Assembly (NCBI GenBank): GCA_903889915.1
Contig: CAISZK010000029.1
Coordinates: forward strand, 1-59,116
Direction: 5' to 3'
Length of the DNA: 59,116 bases
Source of the DNA: an uncultured Bacteroidota bacterium
Lineage (GTDB): Bacteria > Bacteroidota > Bacteroidia > Bacteroidales > CG2-30-32-10
The notes under the pieces are model-generated. The model searched no databases. It saw only the letters and a program-made list of their open reading frames with translations, and had not been told where the DNA came from. The position numbers and the translations under genes were made by a program. Shown in pieces: positions 4,588 through 43,499 of the stretch (positions within the stretch are counted from its first letter, which is position 1; the number at the start of each line of letters is the position of its first letter).

Positions 4588-4628
4588 ATGTTCCACTCTT
4601 TAAAAAAAAGAGGAACATTTTTTTTGAT
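4588..4628 (+). terminator. Rho-independent terminator-like hairpin with a T-tract
   Basis: atgttccactcttt-A8-aaagaggaacat followed by TTTTTTTT. Confidence 0.5.
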
Positions 4629-4838
4629 AAGTAATGGATAAAAAGTATAAATTTCAATCAGCAATGCAAACACCAAAGGTAGTATTTTGTTGAAATATAA
4701 TTTTGTAAGCTATTCAGTGATTTTGAAAAAAGTTTATAAATTGACCTGTTTAAAACCCAACAAAAACATTTTTTTATTGAGTTATTAAATGGATTGTTAC
4801 TTTTGCTTCCTCATAATTTAATTAGTCATTAAAATACA

Positions 4839-10983: not shown

Positions 10984-11106
10984 GATGCAATTGTTTTTAC
11001 AAAGGTATGAAATTTGTCATTACAATTACGACAAGTGTCATAAATAAATCTCAAAGTGTTGTGAAATATTAGAACACTCCTCTATTTTTGAACTATGAAA
11101 AGCATA

Positions 11107-11685: not shown

Positions 11686-11693
11686 GATTGAAA

Positions 11694-12152
11694 TTATTTT
11701 TGTTCGTATGCGGCTTTTGATTTTTTTATGATTGAAACTATTGCATCATTCAATGCATCATTTCCTTTGCCATCAACAGAAAGACCGATCTGCATATCTC
11801 CTATGCTCAGGTCTTTTTCAGCAATTGTAACACAACCCGCTTTTTTGCAAATATAAAAATTCAGATCCAGAATAAGGTAATAATCCTTGTCCATTCCTCT
11901 CGCCCTGCTGTCAAAAAAGTGAAAATTAATCGTAGTCCTATCATCACTTTTAGTTACAGTTTTAAAAGTTTCACTGTTTGCAATTCCATTTAATTGCGGA
12001 TAGGTGGATTCAAGTTTTACAATATTGTTAATGATAGTATCAGCGATCGCAGAGTATTCCTGTATTTTCTGATCCGTTGATTGTGCACAACCCTGGTACA
12101 TGCATGATGTGATACAGAAAATAAAAATTACGAAGCATACCCTGCTTTTCAT
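11694..12152 (-). CDS. Hypothetical lipoprotein
   Basis: Start chosen at the internal Met MKSRVCFVIFIFCITSC (lipobox). The longer ORF would overlap the upstream gene. Confidence 0.45.
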   Translation of the reverse strand: MKSRVCFVIFIFCITSCMYQGCAQSTDQKIQEYSAIADTIINNIVKLESTYPQLNGIANSETFKTVTKSDDRTTINFHFFDSRARGMDKDYYLILDLNFYICKKAGCVTIAEKDLSIGDMQIGLSVDGKGNDALNDAIVSIIKKSKAAYEQK

Positions 12153-26116: not shown

Positions 26117-27415
26117 TTAAAAATTCCCAATTTCAGAAATTGCATACAGCGGCAAATTTATCAGCCAGTCCTCTTTCTTGTAATCAGACATTGAACTCCT
26201 GACAGCTATGACCGGGTTATACTTCTGGCAGAATACCTTTAAACTTTTAGCCTGCAAATTTTCTTCAGCTTTCACTTCTACCGGGATAACCTTTCCATTA
26301 TGCTGTATGATAAAATCAATTTCAGCAGTTGATTTTTCTGCTGACCAATAATAAACATTAAATTCTTTTTCAGAAACCAATTGCTGCAAAACATATTGTT
26401 CAGTGAGGGCTCCCTTAAACTCTTTAAAAATGGCATTACCTTCCAGTAATGTTTTGACATCAATGTTTCCCATTGCTGAAAGTAGTCCAATATCAACAAA
26501 AAATAATTTGAAAGAAGAAAAATCCAAATATGCTTTAAGCGGAATGGCACTGTTAGACACACGGCTGACTTTATGTATAAGACCACCGTCAATCAACCAA
26601 GCCATTGCTATTTCATAATCTTTTGCCCTGGTGCCTTCTTTAATGACACCATAAATAAACTTACGATTTTCTTTTGCCAATTGTGCAAGGACGGAGTTCC
26701 ATAACATTCTTACCTTAGGAACAATTTCATGAGGCGCATGTTTTGAAAAATCCAGTTCGTAAGCCTCCAAAATTTGTTTTTGTATCTCACGGACTTCTGC
26801 ATAATCATTACGCTCACGAAAGGCATTTACAACTTCTGGCATACCGCCGATAAAATAATATTGACGCAAAAGTTGAATATATTTTTGTTTAAAGGTTTTT
26901 ATTAAATCCCATTTTTTGTCCTCAAGAAGCGACACCAGATTTTTTTGCCCAAGAGCCGTCATAAATTCAGTAAGTCGCAATGGATGCAGATCCAGAAATT
27001 CCACTTTACCAACCGGGAAAGAGGTATGCCTGTGCAAAGCGACACCCAGTAAAGAGCCGGCAGCAAGTACATGATATCCGGGAGTGTTTTCATGAAAATA
27101 TTTTAGCGATGTGAGCGCTCCTTCTGCTTCCTGAATTTCATCAAGAATGATCAAGGTGTTGTTTTCATTGAATAATACGCCTGTTTCAATTTGCAAGGCT
27201 TCAACTATCCTGTCAATATTGAAATCCTCCTTAAAAATATTTTGAAGATGTTTGCTGCTCTCAAAATTGACATAAATACACTGTTCGTATTCCCGCTTTC
27301 CAAATTCTTTCATCAGCCAGGTTTTGCCGACCTGACGAGCACCTCTTAAAAGTAAGGGCTTTCTGGTTTTGGATCTTTTCCATCGTTTTAATATCTCTAT
27401 TTCGGCTCTTTCCAT
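26117..27415 (-). CDS. AAA family ATPase (AAA_14 + DUF4143 type)
   Basis: LLLRGARQVGKT Walker A and LIILDEIQ Walker B. Paralog of 39436-40773 and 42372-43499. Confidence 0.8.
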   Translation of the reverse strand: MERAEIEILKRWKRSKTRKPLLLRGARQVGKTWLMKEFGKREYEQCIYVNFESSKHLQNIFKEDFNIDRIVEALQIETGVLFNENNTLIILDEIQEAEGALTSLKYFHENTPGYHVLAAGSLLGVALHRHTSFPVGKVEFLDLHPLRLTEFMTALGQKNLVSLLEDKKWDLIKTFKQKYIQLLRQYYFIGGMPEVVNAFRERNDYAEVREIQKQILEAYELDFSKHAPHEIVPKVRMLWNSVLAQLAKENRKFIYGVIKEGTRAKDYEIAMAWLIDGGLIHKVSRVSNSAIPLKAYLDFSSFKLFFVDIGLLSAMGNIDVKTLLEGNAIFKEFKGALTEQYVLQQLVSEKEFNVYYWSAEKSTAEIDFIIQHNGKVIPVEVKAEENLQAKSLKVFCQKYNPVIAVRSSMSDYKKEDWLINLPLYAISEIGNF

Positions 27416-27816
27416 GACTTTTACTTAATAAGAAGTTGCAAATATACATTAAAATGAACAACTTTACGGTCAACTTAACATTTTATTGAACGACTTTTTG
27501 TGATTTAAAGCATTTTTTAGGATGACTTTTGATTTACAAACCTATATTACCGGAGTAATCGAGAAATATTAACAACACTCTATAAACTTATCAAAATAGA
27601 AGTGCATACAATTGAAATAGGCACCAACTACAAAAACAATATTGTATAGAATTTGAATTATGGAATATTAAAGGAACTCTTGAATAATGATTAGTGAAAA
27701 GGATTATTCTAAAAGGAAGGTTATTGTGAAATACATGTGAAAGTATGTTGGGAATAAAGATCAACTAAAGCGCCTGCAGTTTTACCAATGTTCATCCGGC
27801 GGCTAAATATTCACAA

Positions 27817-28863
27817 TTATTTTTTTCCTCCCGCAAGATCATATTCCAAATCAAATGGCTTTGCATACCGCGCCGAGGCTAATTTTAGTTTCTCTGCAAT
27901 TTTGTTCTTTAACCGCCGTGGAGCCAATACCTGCATAGATTCACCAAAGCCAAGTATCTCCCTTTCCAGTTCAAAATTCCATATTACCTTTATGGAAAAT
28001 ATCATTCCATTTTCATACTCTTTGACAATTTTTTGTGTAGAATGCAGGGGTTTTGTACAAATGTAAGGTGCGTTCACTTTGTCAACCCACAGAACAATGT
28101 TATAATCGCGTTGAGTGAGCCCTTTTGTGACGCCTATTACATCGTCATAATAAGTGTCAATATTGATGGTGGTGTTTTTTAAATATTTTTCCTTTGCTTC
28201 AGTGATGTCAATTATTCTGTCAAGAGCAAGTGTGAGTATGCTTTTGTTAGATTTTGCACCTAAAATAAACCAGCGGTTTCTGTATTCTTTCAGCAGGTAA
28301 GGGCTAAAGACAAACTTATTCGCTTCTCTTGCTTTGAATGATTTGTAGTTAATTTCGATGGCTTTGTTTGAAACGATAGCTTTGTGAATTGGGTCAATAA
28401 ATTCAAGGCCTTTCAGCAAATCGTTTTTCTCGAAATTGATATAAGCCTTTCCTTTGTGCTGCTGACTGAATAATTTATCTTCAAGTTTACTTACCATTAC
28501 TGTCAACTCCTGAAAGTATCCAAAACCCTTGAATTGCTTCAGCACAGCCACCACTTCATTGAGTGTGCCCAGATCCTGTTTTGTCAGTGGGACATTGCTA
28601 ATGCTGAATCCTTTTTCTGCATAAGTGTAGAATTTTTTATCTGTTACAATAATCGGTGCATTATAGCCCAGTTTCTCACTGCGCATATTTTGCAAATCAA
28701 GTTGTATTGCGCGTTTGCTCACACCCTGTGTGATTCCTTCATATTCGTACAACGCATCCGAACAAGCTTCGACAAGATCATCAAGGGTCCATTTGCGGAA
28801 ACGGTTTTGCAAACAGTTATCTATTGTTTTGTAGCGTATCAGTGCAAGTTTGTTTATTGACAT
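27817..28863 (-). CDS. WYL domain-containing transcriptional regulator (HTH-WYL)
   Basis: C-terminal ...NRWFILGAKSNKSILTLALDRI... WYL-type motif. N-terminal winged-helix-like region. Confidence 0.65.
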   Translation of the reverse strand: MSINKLALIRYKTIDNCLQNRFRKWTLDDLVEACSDALYEYEGITQGVSKRAIQLDLQNMRSEKLGYNAPIIVTDKKFYTYAEKGFSISNVPLTKQDLGTLNEVVAVLKQFKGFGYFQELTVMVSKLEDKLFSQQHKGKAYINFEKNDLLKGLEFIDPIHKAIVSNKAIEINYKSFKAREANKFVFSPYLLKEYRNRWFILGAKSNKSILTLALDRIIDITEAKEKYLKNTTINIDTYYDDVIGVTKGLTQRDYNIVLWVDKVNAPYICTKPLHSTQKIVKEYENGMIFSIKVIWNFELEREILGFGESMQVLAPRRLKNKIAEKLKLASARYAKPFDLEYDLAGGKK

Positions 28864-29319
28864 GGCTTTAATGTTTAGTATGAAGATTCAAAAAAGAGCG
28901 TAAAAAGCATTGCAATTATTTTAAAAATTTCCTGAAACCGGTTTCAATGAGTAAAAAAACACCTGTTTTTATTTGCCGGTTTTCTAAATCTACGCAATCT
29001 ACTTGCGCAATTGAAGGTATTTGACAAAAAACATGAAATTTTAATTTTACTAAAACCAATAGTTTAGCATGAAATATTCTGCAAAAGTAAAAATATTTTT
29101 CATTGCGCAATTCGGTTGCGCAGTACAGTATTTATTTTGCATCATCAAAATGATGAATCGTTCTTTGACTAAAAATATTTTCCTAAACAGGATAAAGATC
29201 TTCCTTTACCGGAAGGATATGAAATAATTTGAAAGGCCTCTGATGAGAGTTTCTTCAGGCTCCATAGTATCGTTAACCGTTGGTTTATGATATGCTGCCC
29301 GTAGATTTATCGCATATCA

Positions 29320-29550
29320 GTTTTGTTGTGTGTCGTGGGTTCGACTCCCACTCCGTGAAAGCGGATAACTCAGGCGGATAGAGTAACAACACTGCGCAGG
29401 TTCGAATCCTGCTCCCAATCAAAAATCGGGATAACTCAATTGGTAGAGTATTGGACTGTTAATCCAATGATGAAGAATGCCACTTCTGAAAAGGCAACCG
29501 GAAAAGAAAGGAATAATGTTGCTCTGTGGTTCAATCCACGATCAGGCCAT
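29320..29550 (+). other. Cluster of tRNA-derived fragments. No complete tRNA could be folded by eye; these may be pseudo-tRNAs or att remnants.
   Basis: T-arm plus acceptor-like segments GTGGGTTCGACTCCCAC, GCAGGTTCGAATCCTGCTCCCAATCA and GTGGTTCAATCCACGATCAGGCCA. D-arms ACTCAGGCGGATAGAGT and ACTCAATTGGTAGAGT. One anticodon arm TTGGA-CTGTTAA-TCCAA (GTT, Asn-like). Confidence 0.4.
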
Positions 29551-29878
29551 GGCTTGAGAGCATGCAGATACCGGCAGGAAAATTGCAAAATTGCAGATGG
29601 TCAGCAATTTCCTTTTACAACATTTCGTTTATCAAATGATGTAAAAGTAACAATGAAAAATCATAAAAAGTTTGTGCAATATTCCCGTCTTAAGCAGGCT
29701 TCCGCCACAGGAAGGATGAGCTTATTATTTCTTTCTTTATTAATGAAACCGAACAATCAGCATAGAAAAGCATAAGAAAAAAGATGTGAATTTATGCGGG
29801 TAACAAAAAAATAAAATGAAAAAAATTGATCAGCATAAGCAGTGCGGATCAGCGTAAAAACAACCTAAAAATAAAATT

Positions 29879-30985
29879 ATGAAAAGAGTAAGAATAGATG
29901 CCTACAATGTAGGCTTGGTTTTCAAGAAAAACAATTACAATAGAATTCTTCAACCGGGGGTTTACTGGCTTGGACTATCTGAAAGCATCAGTATTTTCAG
30001 CATGGCAAAACAATTCATTGCACCATGCAACCTCAACATTTTGCTTAATGATAAAGAATTCATGGATGCCACAATTTTCATAGAAATCAGGGATAACGAA
30101 ATCGCTCTGCAATATGAGAATGAACTTTTCGCTGGCGTTTTGACGCCGGGAAGATATGTTTTCTGGAAAGGACTTGTCAATTACAAATTCAATATTATTG
30201 ACCTGAACAATATTGAAATTGACAAGAACATTGAAAAATCCATTCTGTCAAGAAAGGAAGTAATTCCTTACATCAGGGTGGTCAATGTTGATTCTTATGA
30301 AAAATGTGTAATGTTCATTGATGGAAAATACGAAAAAACTCTTGAACCGGGAGCTTATCTTTTCTGGAAAAACATGACCACAATCAACGTTGCAAAAGTA
30401 GATATGAGAGCCATCCAGATGGAGATTTCAGGACAGGAAATTCTTACGAAGGATAAGGCAGCATTGAGGATCAATTTTTTTGTTCAATACAAAGTGGTTG
30501 ACGTAACAAAAGCGCTCGTGAACAACAAGGAATTCGAAAAACAACTTTATGTTTTGAATCAGTTAGCGCTTAGGGAATTTATCGGTGGTTACACGCTGGA
30601 TGAATTGCTTGAAAAGAAAGAGAACATCTCGCAATATGTTGTAGGTTCACTGAATGAAAAAGCCAAAGGGCTGGGAGTTTCAATAATTGGCTCGGGTATC
30701 AGGGATATTATTTTACCGGGCGATGTGAAAGATATCATGAATCAGGTGCTCGTAGCCGAAAAGAAAGCACAAGCCAACATTATCATGAGAAGGGAAGAAA
30801 CAGCCTCAACCAGAAGTTTGCTAAACACTGCCAAACTGATGGAAGAAAATTCAATGCTTTTCAAGTTAAAAGAAATGGAGTATGTTGAAAAAATTGCCGA
30901 GAAGATCAACAACATCTCTCTTTCAGGAAACAGCCTTCTGGTGGATCAGTTAAAACAAATTTTTGTTCCTGTGAAAAAACAATAA
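29879..30985 (+). CDS. SPFH/band-7 domain protein with three N-terminal ~45-aa beta-repeats
   Basis: C-terminal half (…ILTKDKAALRINFFVQYKVVDVTKAL…) is stomatin/HflK-like. N-terminal repeats end in PGxYxFW. Confidence 0.65.
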   Translation: MKRVRIDAYNVGLVFKKNNYNRILQPGVYWLGLSESISIFSMAKQFIAPCNLNILLNDKEFMDATIFIEIRDNEIALQYENELFAGVLTPGRYVFWKGLVNYKFNIIDLNNIEIDKNIEKSILSRKEVIPYIRVVNVDSYEKCVMFIDGKYEKTLEPGAYLFWKNMTTINVAKVDMRAIQMEISGQEILTKDKAALRINFFVQYKVVDVTKALVNNKEFEKQLYVLNQLALREFIGGYTLDELLEKKENISQYVVGSLNEKAKGLGVSIIGSGIRDIILPGDVKDIMNQVLVAEKKAQANIIMRREETASTRSLLNTAKLMEENSMLFKLKEMEYVEKIAEKINNISLSGNSLLVDQLKQIFVPVKKQ

Positions 30986-31050: not shown

Positions 31051-31086
31051 TAGTGACTAATGACTATTGACTAATGACTGATGACA
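31051..31086. repeat. Heptamer (A/T)ATGAC(N) array
   Basis: tagtgactaatgactattgactaatgactgatgaca. Confidence 0.7.
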
Positions 31087-31096
31087 TTTCTCACAA

Positions 31097-32545
31097 ATGA
31101 TTAATTTTACAAACATGAAGAAGAATAAAATAAGCGGTGAAGACTTGTTGGCGATTGGCTATCCTGAGTTAAAAGTTATAGGGATCGCTTTGCAAATGAT
31201 TGATGAAAAATTCGGGGATTACGACAATGAAGATGTGCTGTCGTTGCTTACAGAGGTTCTGAAAGAACCACTGATTTTTGCAGACAGTGAAACATTTTCT
31301 CCGATCGCTACTGCTCTTATTGAATATAATGAAGCAAAATCCAGTGCAGAAGAGCTGGCGCTTAAAGACAACCCTATCCCCTATTCAATTTTCGGTAAAG
31401 AAAACATCGAAGAGGGAGCAATCATTCAGATGAATACTGCCATGAGCCTTCCTGTGACAGTTGCAGGAGCTTTAATGGCCGATGCACATCAGGGATATGG
31501 ATTGCCGATAGGCGGAGTACTTGCTGCGAACAATGCTGTTATTCCTTATGGTGTGGGTGTTGATATAGGCTGCAGAATGTGTCTGAGTATATACGATATT
31601 CCTGAAAATTTTTATTTCGACAATCAAAGTAAGTTCAAAAGAGAGCTGATAGCTTATACAAAATTTGGAGCAGGAGCAGGCTGGCATGGTAAAGATAAAG
31701 CGGATCATGCCATTCTTGAAAGAGAAGAATTCAGATCATTTCCACTGGTTAAAAATTTATTTGATAAGGCTGCTTCACAATTGGGAACTTCCGGAGGAGG
31801 AAACCATTTTGTTGAATGGGGAATTATTGAAATGAATGTAGAGGACGAAGTTCTTAAAGTTCCTAAAGGGAAATATCTGGCTTTGCTTTCGCATTCCGGT
31901 TCCAGAGGCTTTGGTGCAATGCTTGCAAACCACTACACCAGGCTTGCAAAAGAACTTTGTGCTTTGCCACAATCAGCAAAAAATCTGGCTTATCTCAGCC
32001 TCGATACAAGTGAGGGGCTGGAATATTGGCTGGCAATGAATCTTGCGGGAGATTATGCCTCGGCTTGTCATGAAATCATTCACAGCAGAATTACAAAGGC
32101 TATTGGAGGTACAGTTCTTGCAAAAGTGGAAAATCACCACAATTTTGCCTGGAAAGAAAAATACAACGATCAGGAAGTAATTGTGCACAGGAAAGGTGCG
32201 ACTCCTGCATCCAAAGGTACATTCGGCATCATTCCCGGTTCAATGACCGCTCCCGGATTTCTTGTAAAAGGTAAAGGAGAACCATCATCCATCAATTCAG
32301 CTTCACACGGAGCAGGAAGGCAGATGAGCAGAACACAGGCAATAAAAACTTTTACAAAAAACGATATGAGAGCCATACTTAAAGAACATGGAGTTACATT
32401 GATAGGTTCAGGTATTGATGAAGTGCCGATGGCATATAAAAATATAGAGGCTGTAATGTCAGCACAGTCGGGATTGGTTGATATCATTGCCAAATTCACA
32501 CCAAAAATGGTGAGAATGGCTGATGATGGATCGAGGGAAGATTGA
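31097..32545 (+). CDS. rtcB: RtcB family RNA 3'-phosphate ligase
   Basis: Signature motifs HQGYGLPIGGV, GGGNHFVEWG, HSGSRGFG and ENHHNFAW, with GAGRQMSR. Confidence 0.9.
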   Translation: MINFTNMKKNKISGEDLLAIGYPELKVIGIALQMIDEKFGDYDNEDVLSLLTEVLKEPLIFADSETFSPIATALIEYNEAKSSAEELALKDNPIPYSIFGKENIEEGAIIQMNTAMSLPVTVAGALMADAHQGYGLPIGGVLAANNAVIPYGVGVDIGCRMCLSIYDIPENFYFDNQSKFKRELIAYTKFGAGAGWHGKDKADHAILEREEFRSFPLVKNLFDKAASQLGTSGGGNHFVEWGIIEMNVEDEVLKVPKGKYLALLSHSGSRGFGAMLANHYTRLAKELCALPQSAKNLAYLSLDTSEGLEYWLAMNLAGDYASACHEIIHSRITKAIGGTVLAKVENHHNFAWKEKYNDQEVIVHRKGATPASKGTFGIIPGSMTAPGFLVKGKGEPSSINSASHGAGRQMSRTQAIKTFTKNDMRAILKEHGVTLIGSGIDEVPMAYKNIEAVMSAQSGLVDIIAKFTPKMVRMADDGSRED

Positions 32546-32912: not shown

Positions 32913-35075
32913 ATGAAAAAAGAATCCCCCAGGCAAAATAAGTCCGGCCAAATTGAAAACAATATATTGCGGCCAAAAGATCATGAAGGAGAAGAATTAA
33001 ATGGTCCCATAAGGGAGTTAAAGCAGAGCCTCTATAAAGCAAAAAATAAAAAGGGTGAAATTACACCGGGAAAGCCGGTGGAAAACGACCACCGTTTATT
33101 TAATTACCTTTTGCGTTTTAATGAAAAGGGTGCCAAAATTGAGGAACAAAGGATAGAAAATAATTCTGTAAAGTATCATCTCTTCTACAATGAATTTGGA
33201 AAAACTTCAAAAGAGATATACTATGAAAAATCAGGTGAGATAAATTTTATTGCCCATCATACATTTAATGATATAGGCTTGCAACTGGAAACCAATGTTG
33301 TTAAAGCTGACGGCACATGGATGTGGAAAGAGGTGCATGAATACAATGAGAAAAACCTGTTGATTTCAATAAAACATAGTTATCCCAATGAAAAAATGAA
33401 CAGGTTAAACACATACGGCTATGATGAACGTGGCAACAAAACAGAATCAAAAGGTATTAATGCAGACGGGAAAGTTTGGTCGTGGGACATCTGGAAATAT
33501 GATAGTCACAATAATGCCACCGAATTGAAAAGGATGAATTATGATGGGAAATGGGAAACATCTTATTTCCCCAGGGAATATGACGGAAATGGGGAATTAG
33601 TAAAACAAAATTATTTTGTACCGAAAAAGGATTCCGAAATTTACGAATTCAGTTGTGAAAGGGATAACCACGGTAACTGGATTGAAAAAGTTGAATATTA
33701 CAAAAATCTTCCTGTAAACTTTTATGTGAGGGAAATTTGTTATTTCGGTGAAGAGCCGAAGAAGAGTTCAATAAACAAAGTTGAAACGTCAGAAAAACTA
33801 TCAAACATGGAAAATAATTTGGATAATGCAAATGATAACACTGTTCATTCAGAGGAAACTGTAGGAAATGCTTCATACCCTCAATTGAGTTATGAGCAGG
33901 CTAAGTGGTTGGCAGAGGGAAGTTCCCAGGATTTTAATTCGCTGCGCTATTATATCATTATCAACAACGACATGCCTTCATCCTACACCTATGTAGGTAC
34001 GGATATTGAAGCAATAGCGCTGCTTGAAGAATTGAAGGAGAACATGGATGCACAATGCCTTCACACAAATATTTTGAATTATAGCGAGGATCGTGAAGAC
34101 CGTCTAATACGCTACACATTGTCATTCCCTGACAAGGGTTATCTGCTGAATGCAATTCAAATTCAAGCACGTGATGAGTATGAATATGATGTGCCTTCTT
34201 TTATTAAGAGTTACCACAAATTCAATGATGATAATGTTTACACAAGTCAGATAGCATTACTACGACCGGCAGACGCCTCCGGTAAAAGGAATAAGGATTT
34301 TGAAGAAGAACTACAGGAGTATATTGATAAATGTACTTTAGAGAAAGTCCCGGAGAAACCCTCAATATACATGGTTGAATCTGGTGGCAATGGCTACTGT
34401 CTGCGTTCACATGCCATCAATGATGATTTCGAAATAAAAAGTCTGGATACAAATTATGGCTATGGGTTTGAAAAGTTTCATAACGAGTTAATGGGGCGTT
34501 TTAAGTCAGAAACTAAAGGACTGATTCTTTTTCATGGTGAACCGGGAACAGGCAAAACCTATTATATTCGCCACCTGTTGCGCACCATGACAAGCAATGG
34601 TAAAGTGGTTATTTATATGCCGCCAAACATGGTTGACTACCTTATAGAACCTGGCTTTATGACATTTCTTTCCTCTGAAATTTCCAACTTTTCCGATGAG
34701 GGATATTTTTGCGCTCTGCTTATTGAAGACGCCGAACCTCTGCTTGCAGCACGTCAGGGTGATGTTCGCATTCAGGGGGTTTCAAACCTTTTGAATATGA
34801 CCGATGGATTGTTGAACGACATGCTCGATCTGCAGATAATTTGCACATTCAACGTAAAACTGAAAGAATTGGATAAGGCTCTGCTTCGTCCCGGAAGGCT
34901 TCTTGCCCGCAAAGAGTTCAAACGGCTGAGTGCCCTTGATGCAAATATACTGGGGCAGCAGTTAGGAGTGAAACATCATTTTACTGCACCTGCAACTATA
35001 GCCGAAGTATATGCAATGCTCAACAACAAAGGCACGGTTTTGCACGGAGTTGGGGATAGGGATGAAGAGGAATAA
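32913..35075 (+). CDS. AAA+ ATPase (classic clade, RPGRL) with a ~480-aa N-terminal repeat-containing domain of unknown function
   Basis: C-terminal Walker A FHGEPGTGKTY and Walker B LLIEDAEPLL, with ...ALLRPGRLLARKEF. The N-terminal domain has repeated ...DGK.W.W..YD..GN... modules. Confidence 0.75.
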   Translation: MKKESPRQNKSGQIENNILRPKDHEGEELNGPIRELKQSLYKAKNKKGEITPGKPVENDHRLFNYLLRFNEKGAKIEEQRIENNSVKYHLFYNEFGKTSKEIYYEKSGEINFIAHHTFNDIGLQLETNVVKADGTWMWKEVHEYNEKNLLISIKHSYPNEKMNRLNTYGYDERGNKTESKGINADGKVWSWDIWKYDSHNNATELKRMNYDGKWETSYFPREYDGNGELVKQNYFVPKKDSEIYEFSCERDNHGNWIEKVEYYKNLPVNFYVREICYFGEEPKKSSINKVETSEKLSNMENNLDNANDNTVHSEETVGNASYPQLSYEQAKWLAEGSSQDFNSLRYYIIINNDMPSSYTYVGTDIEAIALLEELKENMDAQCLHTNILNYSEDREDRLIRYTLSFPDKGYLLNAIQIQARDEYEYDVPSFIKSYHKFNDDNVYTSQIALLRPADASGKRNKDFEEELQEYIDKCTLEKVPEKPSIYMVESGGNGYCLRSHAINDDFEIKSLDTNYGYGFEKFHNELMGRFKSETKGLILFHGEPGTGKTYYIRHLLRTMTSNGKVVIYMPPNMVDYLIEPGFMTFLSSEISNFSDEGYFCALLIEDAEPLLAARQGDVRIQGVSNLLNMTDGLLNDMLDLQIICTFNVKLKELDKALLRPGRLLARKEFKRLSALDANILGQQLGVKHHFTAPATIAEVYAMLNNKGTVLHGVGDRDEEE

Positions 35076-35325: not shown

Positions 35326-35835
35326 ATGAATGAACTTGTAACTAAAAAAGAAATCATCTCTCAAATCTTTTTTATCAGGGACGTGAAAGCGATGCTCGAT
35401 TTTCATTTGGCATCACTGTACGAAGTTGAGACAAAATAGTTAAAGCGTGCTGTAAGGCGTAATATAGAAAGGTTTCCTGAAGATTTTATGTTTGTTTTAA
35501 GCCAAAATGAACTTCAAAACTTGAGGCGTCAATTTGGCACCTCAAGTTGGGGTGGTTCCCGTTATTTGCCAATGGCATTTACCGAACAGGGAGTAGCAAT
35601 GCTCAGCAGTGTCTTACGAAGTGAAAGATCCGTGAAAATAAACATTGCAATTATGCGGGCATTCGTGAAAATGCGCGAATTGATTGATGATAATAAAGAA
35701 CTGAAAATGCGACTTGATAAAATGGAAGGCAAATACGACAAGCAGTTTCAGATAGTTTTTGAAGCGTTGCGGTCTATAATTGAAAAGAAAAATGAACCCC
35801 GGAAAGCTATAGGGTATAAAACCGTAAAAGAATGA
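35326..35835 (+). pseudogene. ORF6N domain protein (KilA-N-like) interrupted by a single in-frame TAG at 35437-35439
   Basis: [64 protein letters not shown]... is one continuous frame. The downstream ORF 35488-35835 carries the conserved ...WGGSRYLPMAFTEQGVAMLSSVL... core. Confidence 0.7.
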
Positions 35836-35933: not shown

Positions 35934-36581
35934 TTGATATTGCAAAATTTGGACGTTTCAATAATTACCAGTGGGATAAAATCATTGGAAAATATGAAAG
36001 ACAATAAAAAACTTTACAAGATCAACCTCAACAATGATGAAGATGGCAGTATTTGGAACCTCCTTGTTTCAATGGTGATTGACAAAGCAAATTTCTTTAA
36101 ATTTCATTCGGTATTTACTAATCAGGGTGATTGGGTCTCTTCTGCAGTTTTGCATGCGCGTGAACATGCAAGAGAGTTAGGTTTTTCAAAGACCATTGCT
36201 GTGATATATCCTATGGAAAAAAAGCAACCTGATGGAGGTCATATTTATCAAATAATTGTAAAGATTGCTTTAGACCCCGAAATCAGGGCAAAGATCCGTT
36301 CTTATAAAACATTAACTGACATGGTTACTAAAAACGATGATGATATTTATAATCCATCATTCTTTTTTCATGGTATTACTTTGTTGAGTTCAGTTACCAG
36401 CATGGGCTTTGCGAAGATTTTACTTTCACCTGATGAAAAGAAAATACTGGATGGGAAAATTAGTTCCCTGAAAAGTAAAATGAAAGCAAAACCAATGAAT
36501 GACAGATATTTTATTCCGGCTAAAGAACTAATGAAAGAGTTTACGATAAAAGGAAGATTTTACAAATATGGGGAAGCATAA
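35934..36581 (+). CDS. Hypothetical protein
   Basis: 215-aa ORF with no recognisable motif. The true start is possibly the internal MKDNKK. Confidence 0.4.
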   Translation: MILQNLDVSIITSGIKSLENMKDNKKLYKINLNNDEDGSIWNLLVSMVIDKANFFKFHSVFTNQGDWVSSAVLHAREHARELGFSKTIAVIYPMEKKQPDGGHIYQIIVKIALDPEIRAKIRSYKTLTDMVTKNDDDIYNPSFFFHGITLLSSVTSMGFAKILLSPDEKKILDGKISSLKSKMKAKPMNDRYFIPAKELMKEFTIKGRFYKYGEA

Positions 36582-36593
36582 TGCCGGTCATTA

Positions 36594-37175
36594 TTGACTA
36601 TTGTCGCAAAGGATTACTATGAAAAAAAGCTAAAGGCCTTATTGGTTATAATGCTTAATCCCGGAAATTCCCGTCCGGTTGACAAAACCTATAAACCTGT
36701 ACAATTGAAAAATATTGCAATGGACACTTCCATTGATTTAATTGCCGCAACACCTGATAACACCCAATATCAAATCATGAGAGTGATGAAAGAATTAGGA
36801 TATACACTCGCTGCTATCATCAATATTCTTGATGTAAGGGAAACAGATAGCAGGAAACTGGCGAAAATGTCCGTGAATTTTGAAAAAGAAGAAACATCAA
36901 TTTTTCATAAAAACAGGAAAAAAGAACTCAAAGACAATTTGTGTTTTAAACAAGATGTGATTGTTGCATGGAGTTGTAAAATAGGAAAAGAAGCAACAGA
37001 CCTATTGTTGGATCGCATTAAAATCAATAATAACAGAATCTTTAGCAAAATAAATAAAGAAGGATTGGTGTGGCATGCAAATCCCAGGAACAAAAAACTA
37101 CAATGTGAGTGGCTTAATGAAATAATTACAGATATAAAGAAGTCGAAGTTGATGGATGATTTGCCCAGATATTGA
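36594..37175 (+). CDS. DUF1643-like protein
   Basis: ...LLVIMLNPGNSRPVD... and ...VIVAWSCKIG... resemble the DUF1643 LNPS...AWG signature. Confidence 0.4.
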   Translation: MTIVAKDYYEKKLKALLVIMLNPGNSRPVDKTYKPVQLKNIAMDTSIDLIAATPDNTQYQIMRVMKELGYTLAAIINILDVRETDSRKLAKMSVNFEKEETSIFHKNRKKELKDNLCFKQDVIVAWSCKIGKEATDLLLDRIKINNNRIFSKINKEGLVWHANPRNKKLQCEWLNEIITDIKKSKLMDDLPRY

Positions 37176-37723
37176 AAGATAAAAAAAAGTGGCTAAGAGG
37201 AAAGTAAGGTAAGCTTTGCTCTAAGTGGTATTTCAGTTATTATCTTTTCAGATATTTTTAAATATTTTTTTCAAAACATGTATTTGGAATAAAATTTTCT
37301 TATTAATTTTGCACCTTTCGATTTAAGTTATTAACCCCTACTCATAAGTGATAAACATAACTTGGATCTAGTCGATGTTTCATTTTTATGGAACATTCCC
37401 ATAGCTTGGATAACCAGCCATTCCCTGGTGCATTAAATGCATGGTCACCTATAGTGACTCCTCTTTGTGATAATTCGATTTCATAAACCCAAATCGAGTG
37501 ACTCTACTCTTTCCAAAAGAATTTCTTTTGCCTTGAGTAACTATGATCCTTATCCAAAATTAATTTGGAGCAGATGATGTGCGAATTTGTTCGCTATTCT
37601 CCACATGTAATTCGTTTCTATTTCCCGCCCCCTTACTCCCTTCACTTTTACCTGATAGAGGGATAAGGTTAGGGTAAATAAGAAACTGCCTTTTAAAAAC
37701 AATCTTTTAAAAAATTATTTACT

Positions 37724-38635
37724 ATGAAAAATTCAAGTTATGATTATTTCCAGGAAGAACTGGATAATCATGCAAATCAATTAAATCAAATCCCATCTCT
37801 CAACTTCCACCTAACCGGCTCCTGCAACATGCGCTGCCGTTACTGTTTTTCTCATTATGAGAAAGACCATGCTGAACTTGCTATGTCTATGCCCGAACAG
37901 GCACAGATAAAGCTTATCAGAGAATTGTTCACCATTGGCTTTCGCAAGATATCTTTTGCCGGTGGTGAGCCTACCTTGTGCAGACACCTGCCACGGTTGG
38001 TCCAGTTTTCAAAAAATATTGGTTTCACAACCATGCTTGTCACCAATTCATCCCGAATTGATGATGCGTTATTACGAAGTTTTCATGGAAGTCTCGATTG
38101 GCTTTGCATCAGCATTGACAGCCTGAAAACTTCAACAAATCTAGAGATAGGGCGCTGCCTGTCCAATGGTTTTGTTCTATGCGAGGATTATTACAAGCAA
38201 ATTATTGAGCTTGCCAGAGAGCATGGTTTGCGCTTAAAAATAAACACTGTGCTAAGCCGGTTCAACCTCCATGAAAACTTTACCGGTTTCCTGTTGTGGG
38301 CAAAACCCGAACGATGGAAGGTGTTCCAGGTACTGCCTGTTGTTGGGCAAAATGAAACTGCTTTCAATGAATGTTCCATCACTGAGGATGAAATGAGTCT
38401 GTTTCTGACAAAGCATGCATCACTGCAAAAACTGTTCGATATAATTCCGGAAAGAAACAATGACATGAAAGGCTCTTATGTGATGGTAAATCCTTCCGGA
38501 AGATTCTACTGCAACATCAACGGGCAGCATACCTACAGCGATCAGGTACTTGAAGCAGGAGCAAAAATGGCGATTGCTCAAATGTCTTATGATTTCGCGA
38601 AATTCATCAATCGTCAGGGTCTTTATAAATGGTAA
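37724..38635 (+). CDS. Prokaryotic viperin (pVip), a radical SAM enzyme that synthesises ddhNTP
   Basis: CNMRCRYCF (CxxxCxxC). ISFAGGEPTL, LKINTVLSRFN, RWKVFQVLPV and DMKGSYVMVN...LYKW align along the full length to the RSAD2 core. Confidence 0.85.
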   Translation: MKNSSYDYFQEELDNHANQLNQIPSLNFHLTGSCNMRCRYCFSHYEKDHAELAMSMPEQAQIKLIRELFTIGFRKISFAGGEPTLCRHLPRLVQFSKNIGFTTMLVTNSSRIDDALLRSFHGSLDWLCISIDSLKTSTNLEIGRCLSNGFVLCEDYYKQIIELAREHGLRLKINTVLSRFNLHENFTGFLLWAKPERWKVFQVLPVVGQNETAFNECSITEDEMSLFLTKHASLQKLFDIIPERNNDMKGSYVMVNPSGRFYCNINGQHTYSDQVLEAGAKMAIAQMSYDFAKFINRQGLYKW

Positions 38636-38646: not shown

Positions 38647-39183
38647 ATGAAACACAAAATCACTATCAGCGGAAAAGCCGGTTCCGGTAAAAGTACAGTC
38701 TGAAAATTGCTTGCAGAAAAACTTCAGGTTCCATTCCATTCTGTTGGCAACACCACACGCGGGTATGCAAAAAGAAACTTCGGACTTGGCATCATAGAAT
38801 TTCAGCAGTATTGCCTGTCACATCCTGAAGTGGATAAAAAACTGGATGAATATTTCAGTAAAATGGGGCATGAAATGGATGGCTTTGTAATGGACTACAG
38901 GCTGGGATTTCATTTTATTCCTGAGGCATTTCATGTCTTGCTTACGGTGCCTGATGAAATAACTGCTCACCGAGTATTGGCAGCCAAAAGAAATGACGAG
39001 TTTACAACAACTGATTATGAAACGATATTGCTAGAACTAAAGACCAGGAATGCTAAGATGCGCGAGAGGTTTATTAATCAATATAGCGTGGATTACGAAG
39101 ACAAGGTCAATTACAATCTGGTATTAGATGCATCCAAAATAGACCCATTTGAATTAGTTCGCAAGATCAAGGATTCTTTTTAA
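38647..39183 (+). pseudogene. Cytidylate (CMP/nucleotide) kinase-like gene associated with pVip, interrupted by one in-frame TGA at 38701-38703
   Basis: MKHKITISGKAGSGKSTV-TGA-KLLAEKLQVPFHSVGNTTRGY... P-loop and lid are in one frame. The ORF track resumes at TTG 38707. Confidence 0.7.
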
Positions 39184-39435: not shown

Positions 39436-40773
39436 ATGTTCGATAGGTTAATTATTAGCAGTTTGAAAACCTGGGCTGACAGCAGTCCCTGCAAACCACT
39501 TGTGCTAAGGGGGGCACGACAGGTTGGAAAAACAACATTGGTCAAAGAATTTGCCAAAGAGTTTTCAGTTTTTATTCATCTCAATCTGGAAAAAGAAGAA
39601 CAAAGACGAATCTTTTCCTCAGGCAAAAACTTCCCTGAACTACTTGATGCCATTTTTTATTTGAGCGGAAAAGAGAGGAATAAAGGCAAAACTTTGATAT
39701 TTATTGATGAAATTCAGAACTCGCCAGAAGCTATCGGTTACTTGCGCTATTTTTACGAAGAAGCGCCCGAATTATTTGTCATAGCTGCCGGATCCCTGCT
39801 TGAAAGCATGCTCAACCGGAATATTTCTTTTCCTGTGGGCAGAGTTGACTATATGGCTTTACGTCCATGCTCATTTCTGGAATTTATAGGAGCCTTGGGT
39901 GAACAAGTATCTGCCGAAATGATCACCAGCGGCGCTGTTCCTGGCTTTGCACATGAGAAACTCAAATCATTGTTTCATCGTTATGCACTGATTGGAGGCA
40001 TGCCCGAAATAGTAGCGGTTTATGCTGCTACCGGTGACCTGATCCGGCTGAAAAAGACGTACCAAAGCCTGCTTGCCGGCTTCAGCGATGATGTGGAAAA
40101 GTATGCAAGTAACAATGCAATGATTCACTACATCAGGCATATATTCAAAACAGGGTTTTCTTTTGCCGGGCAAAGGATAAAGTTTGCGAATTTCGGCGTT
40201 TCCGATTATCGCTCGCGTGAAATGGGAGAAGCATTTCGCACACTTGAAAAGACTATGCTGCTCGAATTGATCTATCCTGCCTCGTCTGTCAGCATTCCCA
40301 TCCTGTCTAATTATCGTAAATCACCGAGATTACAATGGGTTGATACAGGACTGGTAAACTATGCTGCAGGCGTACAGCATGAGATATTCACTTCACCAAG
40401 CATAATGACAGCATGGAAGGGCATCATAGCCGAGCATATTACAGGGCAGGAACTATTGGCTTATGATAATGATGTATTGAGCAAAAGACATTTCTGGACC
40501 CGCGAAGAAAAAAACTCAATGGCTGAAATTGATTTCATTTTTAATTATAATGGTATCATCATTCCCGTTGAAGTGAAGTCAGGCGATACTGGCAGGTTGA
40601 GGTCACTACATTTGTTTATGGATGCCGCATCACATAAAATTGCTGTAAGAATTTGCCAGGAGAAGTTTGCTGTAATTGATTTAAAAACCATAAAAGGAAA
40701 ACCATTCCGGCTTATCAGTATTCCTTTTTACCAAATTTCGCAAATCAGTCAAATTTTGGATAAATACGTGTAA
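39436..40773 (+). CDS. AAA family ATPase (AAA_14 + DUF4143 type)
   Basis: LVLRGARQVGKTTL and LIFIDEIQ. Paralog of 26117-27415. Confidence 0.8.
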   Translation: MFDRLIISSLKTWADSSPCKPLVLRGARQVGKTTLVKEFAKEFSVFIHLNLEKEEQRRIFSSGKNFPELLDAIFYLSGKERNKGKTLIFIDEIQNSPEAIGYLRYFYEEAPELFVIAAGSLLESMLNRNISFPVGRVDYMALRPCSFLEFIGALGEQVSAEMITSGAVPGFAHEKLKSLFHRYALIGGMPEIVAVYAATGDLIRLKKTYQSLLAGFSDDVEKYASNNAMIHYIRHIFKTGFSFAGQRIKFANFGVSDYRSREMGEAFRTLEKTMLLELIYPASSVSIPILSNYRKSPRLQWVDTGLVNYAAGVQHEIFTSPSIMTAWKGIIAEHITGQELLAYDNDVLSKRHFWTREEKNSMAEIDFIFNYNGIIIPVEVKSGDTGRLRSLHLFMDAASHKIAVRICQEKFAVIDLKTIKGKPFRLISIPFYQISQISQILDKYV

Positions 40774-40952: not shown

Positions 40953-42029
40953 ATGCAAGCAGTTTACATCAACCGTCCTTCGAACCCGGATCAGAAGATA
41001 GAGGAACCAATGGTTTTATACATTCTATGCCTTATTGCAGAAAAGTTTTCGTATTGCTGTGAACTTTCTCTTTTCATTAATATCTGGCAAATGCAGAAAG
41101 TTTGGAATGATAAAACAATATTTAATTTGTACTATAATAACATACCGCCCCGGGCATTTTTTCTTGAGAGAGAAAAGGCTGAGGATATTATGAATGGAGT
41201 CAGAAATGCAAAAAAACATAAGCATAAAAATAAAGATGACCTGGAGGTTATACATTTAGGGATGAAACTTATCAACGACATGAAAGAAGACCTGCTGAGT
41301 TACTTCAAAAGTCATTTAAAAAGAGTCCATATTTACGAAATGATTGATCTGCTTGATGAGAAAATTGCAACAATACTTCCATATATTTTACCTAAAGACA
41401 AAGAATATTACACCAACAACGAGTTATTCCAGTTTCTTCATGAAGTAATTGTTGACAGCGAAGAAATAATGTTTTTCCATTGTTTCCCTGAAGTTTTCAC
41501 TAAAGGAAATGCCCTAAATATTGAAGAGAACAAGCCGGTAATTGACAACAGTAAACAGAATTTTATTTCATTACCACTTTTTAAAATTCCAGGTTGCTCT
41601 GATTTAAGCGCCGCCAATATGAAATACATACGTTCAAAAATGCTCCCATACATTAAACCACTTTCAGAATTAATCTACGAATTGAAGGAAATGGCTGCCG
41701 GTGAAGTTTTTGGTTTGGAATTGTTCAGGAAAGTTCAGGAAATTTATTCCAAAATAAGCATTGAATCACAAAAAATACAAGACCTGATCAAAAATGAAAT
41801 TTATTTTCAGCAATTTATCAATTCAAAAGAAAAGTACATTGATTTTTTTCTATACGCAGGAGTTGGTTCTCTCGATACCCTGATTTACTTATTCCAACGC
41901 AATAAGGTAATTGAAGACTTTTCAGCCACAGCACTCAGGAAAAACATTGAAAGGCAATATGACCTTCAATCATGCGATGCTTTCCTTTATTGGGACATTC
42001 GCGATATGGAAGGGAATATTATAGAGTGA
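40953..42029 (+). CDS. Hypothetical protein
   Basis: 358-aa ORF with no recognisable motif. Flanked by the composite repeats. Confidence 0.45.
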   Translation: MQAVYINRPSNPDQKIEEPMVLYILCLIAEKFSYCCELSLFINIWQMQKVWNDKTIFNLYYNNIPPRAFFLEREKAEDIMNGVRNAKKHKHKNKDDLEVIHLGMKLINDMKEDLLSYFKSHLKRVHIYEMIDLLDEKIATILPYILPKDKEYYTNNELFQFLHEVIVDSEEIMFFHCFPEVFTKGNALNIEENKPVIDNSKQNFISLPLFKIPGCSDLSAANMKYIRSKMLPYIKPLSELIYELKEMAAGEVFGLELFRKVQEIYSKISIESQKIQDLIKNEIYFQQFINSKEKYIDFFLYAGVGSLDTLIYLFQRNKVIEDFSATALRKNIERQYDLQSCDAFLYWDIRDMEGNIIE

Positions 42030-42371: not shown

Positions 42372-43499
42372 ATGATAACCCGATTTATAAAAAAACAGAT
42401 ACTTGATTCGGTTGCAAAACCAAATAAAGTGACAGGAATTTTTGGCGCCCGCCGAACAGGAAAAACATTCCTGATGGAGGAAATAAGAAAAGAACTTAAG
42501 CGTGAAAAGATCCTGATGGTACAAGGCGAAAATCTTGATGTGGCTGAAATACTCTCAAGTCGCCGGCTTAGCCTGTTGCAACAAATGGTGCAGGGTTACA
42601 AATACCTCTTCATTGACGAAGCCCAGAAAATTCCTGATATTGGTACTAACCTAAAACTAATGGTTGATTCCATCAAAGGACTGCACATCCTTGTTTCAGG
42701 CTCTTCATCTTTCGATCTGAAAAACAAAATCGGCGAACCGTTGACCGGAAGGAGTAAATACTTTTATTTATATCCCATCGCACAGTTGGAATTGGACGAG
42801 GATTTCTTCACAGCAAAAACTTCACTTGAGAACCGGCTGATATATGGCAGCTATCCACAGGTACTCACAGCCACCAATAATAAAGAACGCATGGAAATTC
42901 TAACATCTTTGCGTGATGGTTATTTGCTGAAAGACATGCTGGAATTGGACAATCAGAAGGACACTATTTTCGTTTTTAACCTGCTTCGGTTAATTGCTTT
43001 CCAGGTTGGCAATGATATTTCCTTCACCGAACTTGCTTCAAATTTGAATGTGAACAAACTTACTGTGATGCGTTACCTTGACCTGCTTGAAAAATGTTAT
43101 GTGCTCTTTTCTCTGAGGGGTTTCAGCCGTAACCTGCGCAAAGAATATACGAAAAGTCCACGCTATTACTTTTGGGACAACGGCATCAGGAATATTTTAA
43201 TTGCAAATTTAAACCCACCCAATATCAGAGATGATATCGGTAAACTATGGGAAAACTACTGCATTTCCGAGCGGTTGAAGAAGTGTCATTACACACGAAA
43301 AACTGTAAACCATTATTTCTGGAGGACCTACGATCAGAAAGAAATAGACCTTGTTGAGGAAGGTTCCGGCAAACTAAAAGGGTATGAAATAAAATGGACA
43401 AAATCGAAAGTAAAGCCACCAAAGGATTTTCTGGAAGCATACGGCAATGCTTCATTTCACGTGATCAACAGGGATAATTACCTTGATTTTATTACTTAA
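42372..43499 (+). CDS. AAA family ATPase (AAA_14 + DUF4143 type)
   Basis: GIFGARRTGKTFL and LFIDEAQK. Confidence 0.8.
   Translation: MITRFIKKQILDSVAKPNKVTGIFGARRTGKTFLMEEIRKELKREKILMVQGENLDVAEILSSRRLSLLQQMVQGYKYLFIDEAQKIPDIGTNLKLMVDSIKGLHILVSGSSSFDLKNKIGEPLTGRSKYFYLYPIAQLELDEDFFTAKTSLENRLIYGSYPQVLTATNNKERMEILTSLRDGYLLKDMLELDNQKDTIFVFNLLRLIAFQVGNDISFTELASNLNVNKLTVMRYLDLLEKCYVLFSLRGFSRNLRKEYTKSPRYYFWDNGIRNILIANLNPPNIRDDIGKLWENYCISERLKKCHYTRKTVNHYFWRTYDQKEIDLVEEGSGKLKGYEIKWTKSKVKPPKDFLEAYGNASFHVINRDNYLDFIT

What the first reader, a model, noticed from the sequence alone, without database searches (positions are those of the whole stretch)
38647..38710. A single in-frame TGA breaks the pVip-associated kinase right after the P-loop
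From the ATG at 38647 the frame reads MKHKITISGKAGSGKSTV, then TGA (38701-38703), then KLLAEKLQVPFHSVGNTTRGY…, matching the cytidylate kinase layout GxGKGT-x-x-KxLAExL. Only one codon is affected and the rest of the gene (to 39183) is intact. TGA is used as an ordinary stop elsewhere in this window, for example at 7743-7745. The possibilities are a very recent nonsense mutation, a sequencing error, programmed readthrough or recoding, or a split gene translated from the TTG at 38707 while the P-loop peptide is made separately. The last case would leave the kinase without a P-loop.
Basis: seen in the sequence. Interest (0 to 1): 0.55.

Follow-up and report, generated by a model that had tools for sequence, protein, structure and literature searches.

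The report
Nonsense-broken kinase beside a bacterial viperin
A helper kinase gene next to an antiviral viperin gene in a Bacteroidota-type genome carries one genuine premature stop codon, most likely an ordinary recent loss-of-function mutation (Gly GGA to TGA) and not a special decoding trick.

Summary
The frame opens at ATG 38647 and encodes MKHKITISGKAGSGKSTV. It then hits TGA at 38701-38703 and continues without further lesions to TAA 39181-39183. Profile matches (Pfam cytidylate-kinase families; PADLOC pVip-kinase E=4.8e-51 and VakA) and 48 homologues align straight across the stop.

The TGA is not an assembly error. Five other metagenome contigs from several studies carry it. They are 99.98-100% identical to the window, so they represent one clonal population.

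All 48 homologues have a small residue at that position (Ala 27, Gly 15, Ser 5, Cys 1). The nearest Bacteroidota relatives have Gly, often encoded GGA. A single G-to-T change explains the stop.

No evidence supports recoding:
- TGA ends RtcB, DUF1643 and a T9SS cargo gene in the same window.
- No hairpin follows the stop (z=+0.83).
- No suppressor or Sec tRNA lies in the window.
- No homologue has a stop there.

The kinase keeps 16 of 16 columns invariant among 22 homologues, so the lesion is young.

The viperin gene upstream is intact. Only 12% of bacterial viperins have a kinase, and the nearest viperin relative whose neighbouring genes could be read (59% identical) has none. The loss is therefore tolerable.

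A second gene 3.3 kb upstream (ORF6N) has an in-frame TAG.

Verdict: an ordinary recent pseudogene, or at best a weak hypomorph. Low interest.

The parts
37724..38635 (+). Prokaryotic viperin (pVip) gene, a radical-SAM enzyme of 303 aa. It is intact and ends in TAA, 11 nt before the kinase ATG.
   Evidence: Pfam Radical_SAM E=6.6e-16. PADLOC pVip and pVip-kinase profiles E=1e-75 to 7e-95 with near-full coverage. CNMRCRYC motif. 1298 homologues at E<=1e-30.
38647..38700 (+). First 18 codons of the viperin-associated NMP kinase: strand beta-1 plus the Walker A / P-loop (GKAGSGKST).
   Evidence: Aligns to the N-termini of all homologues.
38701..38703 (+). In-frame TGA at kinase codon 19. Homologues have a small residue here (Ala/Gly/Ser/Cys) and the nearest relatives have Gly, often GGA. 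Inferred GGA to TGA transversion.
   Evidence: (same base in L001-L005).
38704..39183 (+). Remainder of the kinase (159 codons plus TAA): NMP-binding and LID regions with no further stop or frameshift. All deeply conserved residues are retained.
   Evidence: 16 of 16 columns invariant among 22 homologues are retained.
38707..38709 (+). TTG two codons after the stop. It is a possible re-initiation codon, giving a 158-aa product without a P-loop. Gene callers in public data annotate this ORF (P0001).
   Evidence: That it serves as a start is inference only.
35326..35835 (+). Second nonsense-interrupted gene of the same island: an ORF6N-domain protein (PADLOC candidate PDC-S05) with an in-frame TAG at 35437-35439.
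   Evidence: With X at the stop the ORF6N domain is complete (1-86 of 86, E=5.7e-33), against E=1.2e-11 and profile positions 44-86 for the truncated ORF. No base differs from the window at 35437-35439 in L001-L003.

Best explanation
The TGA is a genuine point mutation, present in every sampled copy. It most likely arose as GGA (Gly19) to TGA, in the first turn of the helix that follows the Walker A loop of a viperin-associated NMP kinase (VakA / CMPK2-like accessory gene). Ribosomes that start at ATG 38647 terminate after 18 residues, so essentially no functional kinase is made. The gene is a young pseudogene. At most it is a weak hypomorph through background near-cognate UGA readthrough. The pVip gene upstream has its own stop 11 nt before the kinase ATG and is intact, so it can still be translated. 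The system has thus been reduced from 'viperin plus substrate-supplying kinase' to 'viperin alone, drawing on the cellular NTP pool', which is the arrangement of most bacterial viperins. Shown: the stop, its reproducibility, the ancestral residue class, the absence of recoding signals, and the integrity of the rest of the gene and of pVip. Inferred: the direction of the mutation, loss of kinase activity, and continued pVip function.
For: The stop lies inside a conserved domain. The identical TGA occurs in contigs from JGI 3300025316 and 3300009175, Logan SRR5581337, and ENA ERZ18625109 and ERZ18625277. Two of these differ from the window at 2-3 other positions in 12.9 kb, so at least three haplotypes share the stop. 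The position is Ala 27, Gly 15, Ser 5, Cys 1 in 48 homologues. It is Gly in the 13 closest. The codon is GGA in 5 of the 10 nearest genome loci. No homologue among 48 proteins and about 70 genome loci has a stop there. TGA terminates RtcB, DUF1643 and a T9SS cargo gene in the window. The 81 nt starting 6 nt upstream of the TGA (38695-38775) fold no better than shuffles (z=+0.83). ARAGORN finds no tRNA in the window, and the only Rfam tRNA hit is a Y-RNA-like module with a GUU-type loop. The kinase is dispensable: 12% of bacterial viperins have an associated kinase (bioRxiv 10.1101/2023.09.13.557418). The nearest pVip relative with readable context (59% identity, L087) has none. A neighbouring gene also carries a nonsense codon, but a different one (TAG). 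That fits sporadic decay and not one decoding mechanism.
Against: No other degenerative lesion is present in the 537-nt gene. That is expected for a very recent event, but equally for a gene still under selection. No intact allele and no close orthologue was found. The mutation's direction and age are therefore inferred from relatives at 49% identity or less. All contigs carrying it are near-identical, so persistence over evolutionary time is not shown. E. coli reads through UGA at about 2-4% (PMC10570021), so some full-length protein may exist.
Confidence: 0.76

Rival explanations
1. Leaky hypomorph kept in use. Background near-cognate decoding of UGA, mainly by tRNA-Trp, yields a few per cent of full-length kinase. 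That level is enough, or even preferable, for feeding pVip, so the allele is tolerated or mildly selected.
For: UGA readthrough of about 2% (37 C) to 4% (25 C) was measured in wild-type E. coli, through competition between Trp-tRNA and RF2 (PMC10570021). The stop is followed by A; I recall this being a comparatively weak UGA context in E. coli, but I did not check it here. The rest of the ORF is undamaged.
Against: The position accepts only Ala, Gly, Ser or Cys in 48 homologues, so a Trp product would carry a bulky residue next to the P-loop. There is no stimulatory structure. The stop is not conserved in any relative. Readthrough rates in Bacteroidota are unknown.
Confidence: 0.12
2. Split or re-initiated gene. 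After terminating at TGA, ribosomes restart at TTG 38707 and make a 158-aa protein without beta-1 and the P-loop. That protein has a non-catalytic role (for example NMP binding), or is complemented by the 18-aa peptide.
For: TTG lies 3 nt after the stop. Public gene callers annotate this 158-aa ORF (P0001).
Against: In P-loop NMP kinases, the Walker A loop binds the ATP phosphates and beta-1 is a core strand of the sheet (established knowledge of the fold, not tested here). No naturally N-truncated homologue appears among 48 relatives (lengths 155-206; the only short one is cut at the C-terminus). There is no precedent for an 18-aa P-loop peptide acting in trans.
Confidence: 0.04
3. Artefact: a consensus or assembly error at position 38701.
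For: Metagenome-derived sequence. Raw reads could not be inspected.
Against: The same base is found in five further contigs from JGI, Logan and ENA assemblies of different samples, on at least three haplotypes.
Confidence: 0.02
4. Programmed recoding of UGA, either as selenocysteine or under a UGA-sense code (table 4 Trp, table 25 Gly).
For: Under table 25, TGA would be Gly, which is exactly the residue of the closest homologues. One of 48 homologues has Cys at the position.
Against: TGA terminates genes in the same cluster at their profile-supported ends. There is no SECIS-like hairpin, no tRNA-Sec in the window and no other in-frame TGA in pVip or its neighbours. GGA to TGA is a single step, which explains the Gly coincidence.
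Confidence: 0.01
5. Suppressor-gated defence genes. The in-frame TGA (kinase) and TAG (ORF6N) keep two island genes silent until a phage that encodes stop-codon suppressor tRNAs infects, which then restores the full-length proteins.
For: Two different in-frame stops lie 3.3 kb apart in one defence island of a Bacteroidota-type genome. Many crAss-like phages of Bacteroidetes encode UGA (Trp) or UAG (Gln) suppressor tRNAs (PMC7886860).
Against: Neither stop is conserved in any homologue. Trp would land on a position restricted to small residues. Two distinct suppressors would be required. A literature search found no precedent. Sporadic nonsense mutations explain both more simply.
Confidence: 0.02

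Closest known systems
Prokaryotic viperin with associated nucleotide kinase (PADLOC pVip / VakA; the analogue of vertebrate viperin-CMPK2)
   Same: A radical-SAM pVip with the CxxxCxxC motif sits directly next to a co-oriented cytidylate-kinase-like NMP kinase. Both match the dedicated PADLOC profiles. The same pairing is seen in 9 related genome loci.
   Different: Here the kinase ORF is cut by TGA after the Walker A loop. Sequence identity to the nearest relatives is low (kinase 49%, pVip 61%). The gene order is pVip then kinase, whereas the Flavobacteriaceae and Saprospiraceae relatives (L007, L008, L010-L012, L014) and the fusion proteins have kinase then pVip.
Stand-alone pVip systems (no kinase)
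   Same: Functionally this is what the locus has probably become. 88% of bacterial viperins lack a kinase. The nearest pVip relative with readable context (L087) has a TPR protein upstream, a type I restriction-modification system downstream and no kinase.
   Different: A nearly perfect kinase reading frame is still present.
Ordinary nonsense pseudogenes in defence islands
   Same: A single premature stop in a non-essential accessory gene, with another nonsense-interrupted gene (ORF6N, TAG) nearby.
   Different: There is no accumulated secondary damage yet.
Bacterial selenoprotein genes and UGA-sense genetic codes (tables 4 and 25)
   Same: An in-frame UGA in a conserved enzyme.
   Different: No SECIS hairpin is present, TGA is used as a terminator in neighbouring genes, and the homologous position is Gly/Ala and not Cys/Sec.

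Membership tests
pVip + viperin-associated kinase defence system | Radical-SAM viperin with CxxxCxxC that matches pVip profiles | tested here: met
pVip + viperin-associated kinase defence system | Adjacent, co-oriented NMP kinase homologous to viperin-associated kinases | tested here: met
   PADLOC pVip-kinase E=4.8e-51 and VakA E=7e-25. Homologues sit next to pVips in 9 genome loci.
pVip + viperin-associated kinase defence system | Kinase encoded as one uninterrupted ORF joining the Walker A loop to the NMP-binding and LID regions | tested here: not met
   TGA at codon 19, reproduced in 5 other contigs.
pVip + viperin-associated kinase defence system | Production of ddh-nucleotides and protection against phage | not testable with these tools
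   Needs biochemistry and phage assays.
Nonsense pseudogene | Premature stop within a domain that is continuous in all homologues, and not an assembly artefact | tested here: met
Nonsense pseudogene | Further degenerative changes or relaxed constraint downstream | tested here: not met
   No other stop or frameshift. 16 of 16 deeply invariant columns are retained. This is compatible with a very recent event, so it bears on the age of the lesion and not on its identity.
Programmed stop-codon readthrough | Stop codon conserved at the same site in relatives | tested here: not met
   None of 48 proteins and about 70 genome loci has it.
Programmed stop-codon readthrough | Stimulatory RNA structure 3' of the stop | tested here: not met
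   MFE -12.8 kcal/mol against a shuffle mean of -15.05, z=+0.83. No Rfam family there.
Bacterial selenoprotein | SECIS hairpin immediately downstream of UGA | tested here: not met
Bacterial selenoprotein | Cys or Sec at the homologous position in relatives | tested here: not met
   Ala 27, Gly 15, Ser 5, Cys 1.
Bacterial selenoprotein | selA, selB, selC and selD present in the genome | not testable with these tools
   Only the 59-kb window is available. It holds no tRNA-Sec.
UGA-sense genetic code (table 4 or 25) | TGA not used as a terminator, and in-frame TGAs common in conserved genes | tested here: not met
   16 of the 50 stop-to-stop open frames of at least 150 codons end in TGA. RtcB, DUF1643 and a T9SS cargo gene end in TGA; for RtcB and the T9SS cargo gene the Pfam profile runs to within a few residues of the stop.

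The most novel reading that the evidence does not exclude
The two in-frame stops in this defence island (TGA in the viperin-associated kinase, TAG in the ORF6N gene) are not decay. They act as a sensor: the genes are translated to full length only when an infecting Bacteroidota phage brings UGA or UAG suppressor tRNAs, as many crAss-like phages do. That would turn the phage's own recoding machinery into the trigger for boosting viperin substrate supply.
Probability: 0.02. Interest if true: 0.85.

Novelty: new member of a known kind. Interest (0 to 1): 0.14.

Why it matters
As it stands, the finding matters little. It documents that an accessory kinase of a viperin system can be lost by a single nonsense mutation while the viperin stays intact. 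That agrees with the kinase being optional in most bacterial viperin loci.

It has practical value for annotation. The 158-aa ORF that gene callers report here (P0001) is a truncated, P-loop-less fragment and should not be used as a kinase representative.

Only the unlikely suppressor-gated or functional-readthrough readings would be of wider interest.

Tried and rejected
- **Exact-pattern scan of metagenome contigs.** I used NNN at the stop codon to look for an intact allele. It gave 0 hits. The collection does not appear to hold these contigs, so the result is uninformative.
- **The search for related loci in metagenome contigs with the post-stop kinase fragment.** No relatives.
- **Genome-contig scan with the 24-sequence alignment.** The repeat with 9 sequences did not find the species itself. 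One of its two search patterns required Gly at the stop position, so the Gly count is biased.
- **Suppressor or Sec tRNA search.** ARAGORN found none. The Rfam tRNA hit at 29425-29491 turned out to be a module of a Y-RNA-like element with a GUU-type loop.
- **SECIS or readthrough structure.** None.
- **Second kinase copy or upstream kinase remnant.** Only a weak hit to an unrelated AAA_18 P-loop gene at 11107-11745.
- **Possible fusion of 35934-36581 with DUF1643 (36594-37175).** They share a frame and are separated by TAA. No profile spans the junction, so I rejected the fusion.
- **Systematic listing of ORF pairs bridged by a single stop.** Dominated by chance pairs. Only the ORF6N and kinase cases have homology support.
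- **Dating the mutation from population variation.** Not possible. There are only 3 SNPs in 12.9 kb and none in the kinase.
- **PDB sequence search.** It gave only distant AK6 matches (E about 5e-4), so I attempted no structural argument about residue 19.

Full report
**1. The observation**

The sequence reads exactly as described.
- ATG at 38647 opens a frame that encodes MKHKITISGKAGSGKSTV.
- TGA sits at 38701-38703.
- The same frame then runs for 159 more sense codons to TAA at 39181-39183.
- A TTG lies two codons after the stop, at 38707. The mechanical ORF list starts the 158-aa ORF there.

The interruption lies inside a real domain and is not a chance juxtaposition.
- With X at the stop, Pfam Cytidylate_kin matches residues 5-40 across it. 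Cytidylate_kin2, AAA_18 and AAA_17 also match.
- The PADLOC 'pVip-kinase' profile matches residues 1-175 at E=4.8e-51, and VakA matches at E=7e-25.
- tblastn alignments of 48 homologous proteins run across the stop without a break.

**2. The surroundings**

The gene directly upstream (37724-38635) is a prokaryotic viperin.
- It matches Pfam Radical_SAM and three PADLOC pVip profiles at E=1e-75 to 7e-95.
- It carries a CNMRCRYC cluster motif.
- It ends 11 nt before the kinase ATG.

The pair sits in a co-directional block on the + strand:
- SPFH/Band7 and RtcB;
- a 720-aa AAA ATPase;
- an ORF6N protein;
- an unknown gene and DUF1643;
- pVip and the kinase;
- two AAA_14/DUF4143 ATPases (PADLOC candidate PDC-S01).

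Housekeeping genes flank the block: a 2-oxoacid dehydrogenase complex, Dxr, RseP and dUTPase. Several proteins carry T9SS C-terminal sorting domains. This is a chromosomal defence island of a Bacteroidota-type organism. The organism itself was not found among GTDB species representatives.

**3. Is the TGA real?**

An exact-sequence look-up of the pVip protein returned contigs from JGI samples 3300025316 and 3300009175, Logan SRR5581337, and three ENA assemblies.
- Five of them cover the site and all read TGA. The three that cover the whole kinase are identical to the window over all 540 nt.
- These contigs are 99.98-100% identical to the window.
- L001 and L002 differ at two nonsynonymous sites in the AAA ATPase gene, and L002 differs at one further intergenic site.
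- At least three haplotypes of one clonal population therefore share the stop.

An assembly or sequencing error is effectively excluded. The population is too uniform to date the mutation from polymorphism.

**4. What was there before?**

A search of 5.8 billion protein clusters found only the truncated 158-aa ORF (P0001) at 99% identity. The next hit is at 49%. No intact allele or close orthologue is on record.

Residue at the stop position:
- Among 48 homologues it is Ala 27, Gly 15, Ser 5, Cys 1.
- In the 13 closest bacterial homologues it is always Gly.
- In the ten nearest genome loci the Gly codon is GGA in five. Those loci are eight Bacteroidota (Olleya, Lacinutrix, Gelidibacter, Dysgonamonadaceae, Saprospiraceae, Bacteroidales and others), one MAG titled only 'uncultured Bacteroidetes bacterium' and one Prosthecobacter.

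One G-to-T change, GGA to TGA, is thus sufficient. None of about 70 related genome loci has a stop inside the kinase. No other homologue is truncated at the N-terminus.

**5. Recoding alternatives**

- TGA is a normal terminator here. 16 of the 50 stop-to-stop open frames of at least 150 codons end in TGA.
- These include the T9SS cargo gene at 7743-7745, whose sorting domain ends three residues earlier, and RtcB and DUF1643 in the same cluster. This rules out a UGA-sense code.
- The 81 nt from 38695 to 38775, which start 6 nt upstream of the TGA, fold no better than shuffled sequence (-12.8 against -15.05 kcal/mol, z=+0.83). There is no SECIS-like or readthrough-stimulating structure.
- Rfam reports nothing at the site.
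- ARAGORN finds no tRNA in the window.
- The one Rfam tRNA hit (29425-29491) belongs to a Y-RNA-like element and has a GUU-type anticodon loop, not a suppressor one.
- No repeat tract at the site could drive phase variation (read directly).

**6. State of the rest of the gene**

The kinase keeps all 16 columns that are invariant among 22 diverse homologues, and 17 of 18 columns conserved at 80% or more. There is no second stop or frameshift. The TGA is the only lesion.

This fits a recent inactivation. On its own it cannot exclude continuing selection on a readthrough product.

**7. Consequence for the system**

The reasoning here is partly inference. In P-loop NMP kinases, the Walker A loop binds the phosphates of ATP and strand beta-1 is part of the core sheet. 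This is established knowledge of the fold and was not tested here. An 18-residue peptide and a 158-residue remainder are therefore not expected to be active.

Background UGA readthrough in E. coli is about 2% at 37 C and 4% at 25 C, mainly through tRNA-Trp (PMC10570021). Trp would fall on a position that accepts only small residues.

The viperin needs no kinase to be translated, and the kinase is optional in nature.
- A survey reports associated kinases for only 12% of bacterial viperins. It describes the kinase's role, by analogy with CMPK2, as raising the supply of the NTP substrate (bioRxiv 10.1101/2023.09.13.557418).
- The closest relatives of this pVip are 59-61% identical. The one with readable context (L087) has a TPR protein upstream, a type I restriction-modification system downstream and no kinase.

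The most likely reading is that the locus has just changed from viperin-plus-kinase to viperin-alone.

**8. A second broken gene**

About 3.3 kb upstream, the ORF6N gene (ATG 35326) has an in-frame TAG at 35437-35439.
- With X there, the ORF6N domain is complete (positions 1-86 of 86, E=5.7e-33).
- The truncated ORF matches only profile positions 44-86.
- L001-L003, which cover this site, show no base difference from the window there.
- Phage-borne homologues have Ala, Val, Thr, Leu, Lys or Gln at this position.

Two different stop codons in two unrelated genes are more simply explained as independent nonsense mutations in dispensable island genes than by one decoding mechanism.

**9. Rival readings and a speculative one**

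- Functional leaky readthrough and re-initiation at TTG 38707 cannot be excluded without expression data. They have no positive support.
- The most novel reading not excluded is that the TGA and TAG gate expression on phage-encoded suppressor tRNAs. Many crAss-like phages of Bacteroidetes carry such tRNAs (PMC7886860).
- Against it: neither stop is conserved in relatives, there is a size mismatch for Trp, two suppressors would be needed, and my literature search found no precedent. I put it at about 2%.

**10. Comparison and verdict**

The locus is a previously uncharacterised, divergent member of the known pVip-plus-kinase arrangement. It fails one defining feature, an uninterrupted kinase. 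It is best explained as an ordinary, recent nonsense pseudogene.

Interest is low (0.14). Novelty: a new member of a known kind.

Noticed in passing
window 35326-35835 (+), TAG at 35437-35439: An ORF6N-domain gene (PADLOC candidate PDC-S05) is interrupted by one in-frame TAG. Reading through it restores a complete ORF6N domain (E=5.7e-33). L001-L003 show no base difference from the window at this position. Homologues in viral contigs have A/V/T/L/K/Q at the position.
   Followed up: yes
window 29327-29545 (+): Tandem tRNA-like modules: three GGTTCGA/GGTTCAA T-arm-like hairpins and two D-arm-like segments. Rfam YrlA (Y RNA-like) scores 37 and 27 bits, below the gathering score of 69. Rfam tRNA scores 35.3 bits at 29425-29491, where ARAGORN finds nothing. 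The modules sit between a divergent WYL/WCX regulator (27817-28887, -) and SPFH/Band7 (29858-30985) plus RtcB (31085-32545). No Ro60/TROVE gene was seen in the window. Possibly a Y-RNA-like element of an RtcB RNA-repair operon.
   Followed up: partly
window 26117-27424 (-), 39436-40773 (+), 42372-43499 (+): Three paralogous AAA_14/DUF4143 ATPases, with strong matches to the PADLOC candidate system PDC-S01 (E down to 8e-177), flank the viperin region. An unannotated 358-aa gene (40953-42029) lies between two of them.
   Followed up: no
window 33769 and 33781 (AAA ATPase gene 32913-35075): Apart from one intergenic site (35207), the only differences between the window and contigs L001 and L002 over 12.9 kb are two nonsynonymous changes 12 nt apart (S286L, V290A) in the 720-aa AAA ATPase.
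   Followed up: partly
window 37176-37723: A 548-nt stretch with no convincing ORF directly upstream of pVip. The promoter and terminator pattern scans there gave counts no higher than in shuffled sequence. Its content was not examined further.
   Followed up: no
window 1859-2332 (+) and 424-7745: An IS200-like Y1 transposase is embedded in a run of four genes that carry T9SS C-terminal sorting domains. These point to a Bacteroidota host.
   Followed up: no
window 10097-11016 (-): A RES toxin with an Xre/MbcA/ParS-type antitoxin, next to a cytidine/dCMP deaminase gene (9597-10103) and an AAA_18 P-loop kinase-like gene (11107-11745).
   Followed up: no
window 35934-36581 and 36594-37175 (+): An unknown 215-aa gene and the DUF1643 gene share a reading frame, separated only by TAA plus 12 nt. 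No profile spans the junction, so I treated them as two genes.
   Followed up: partly
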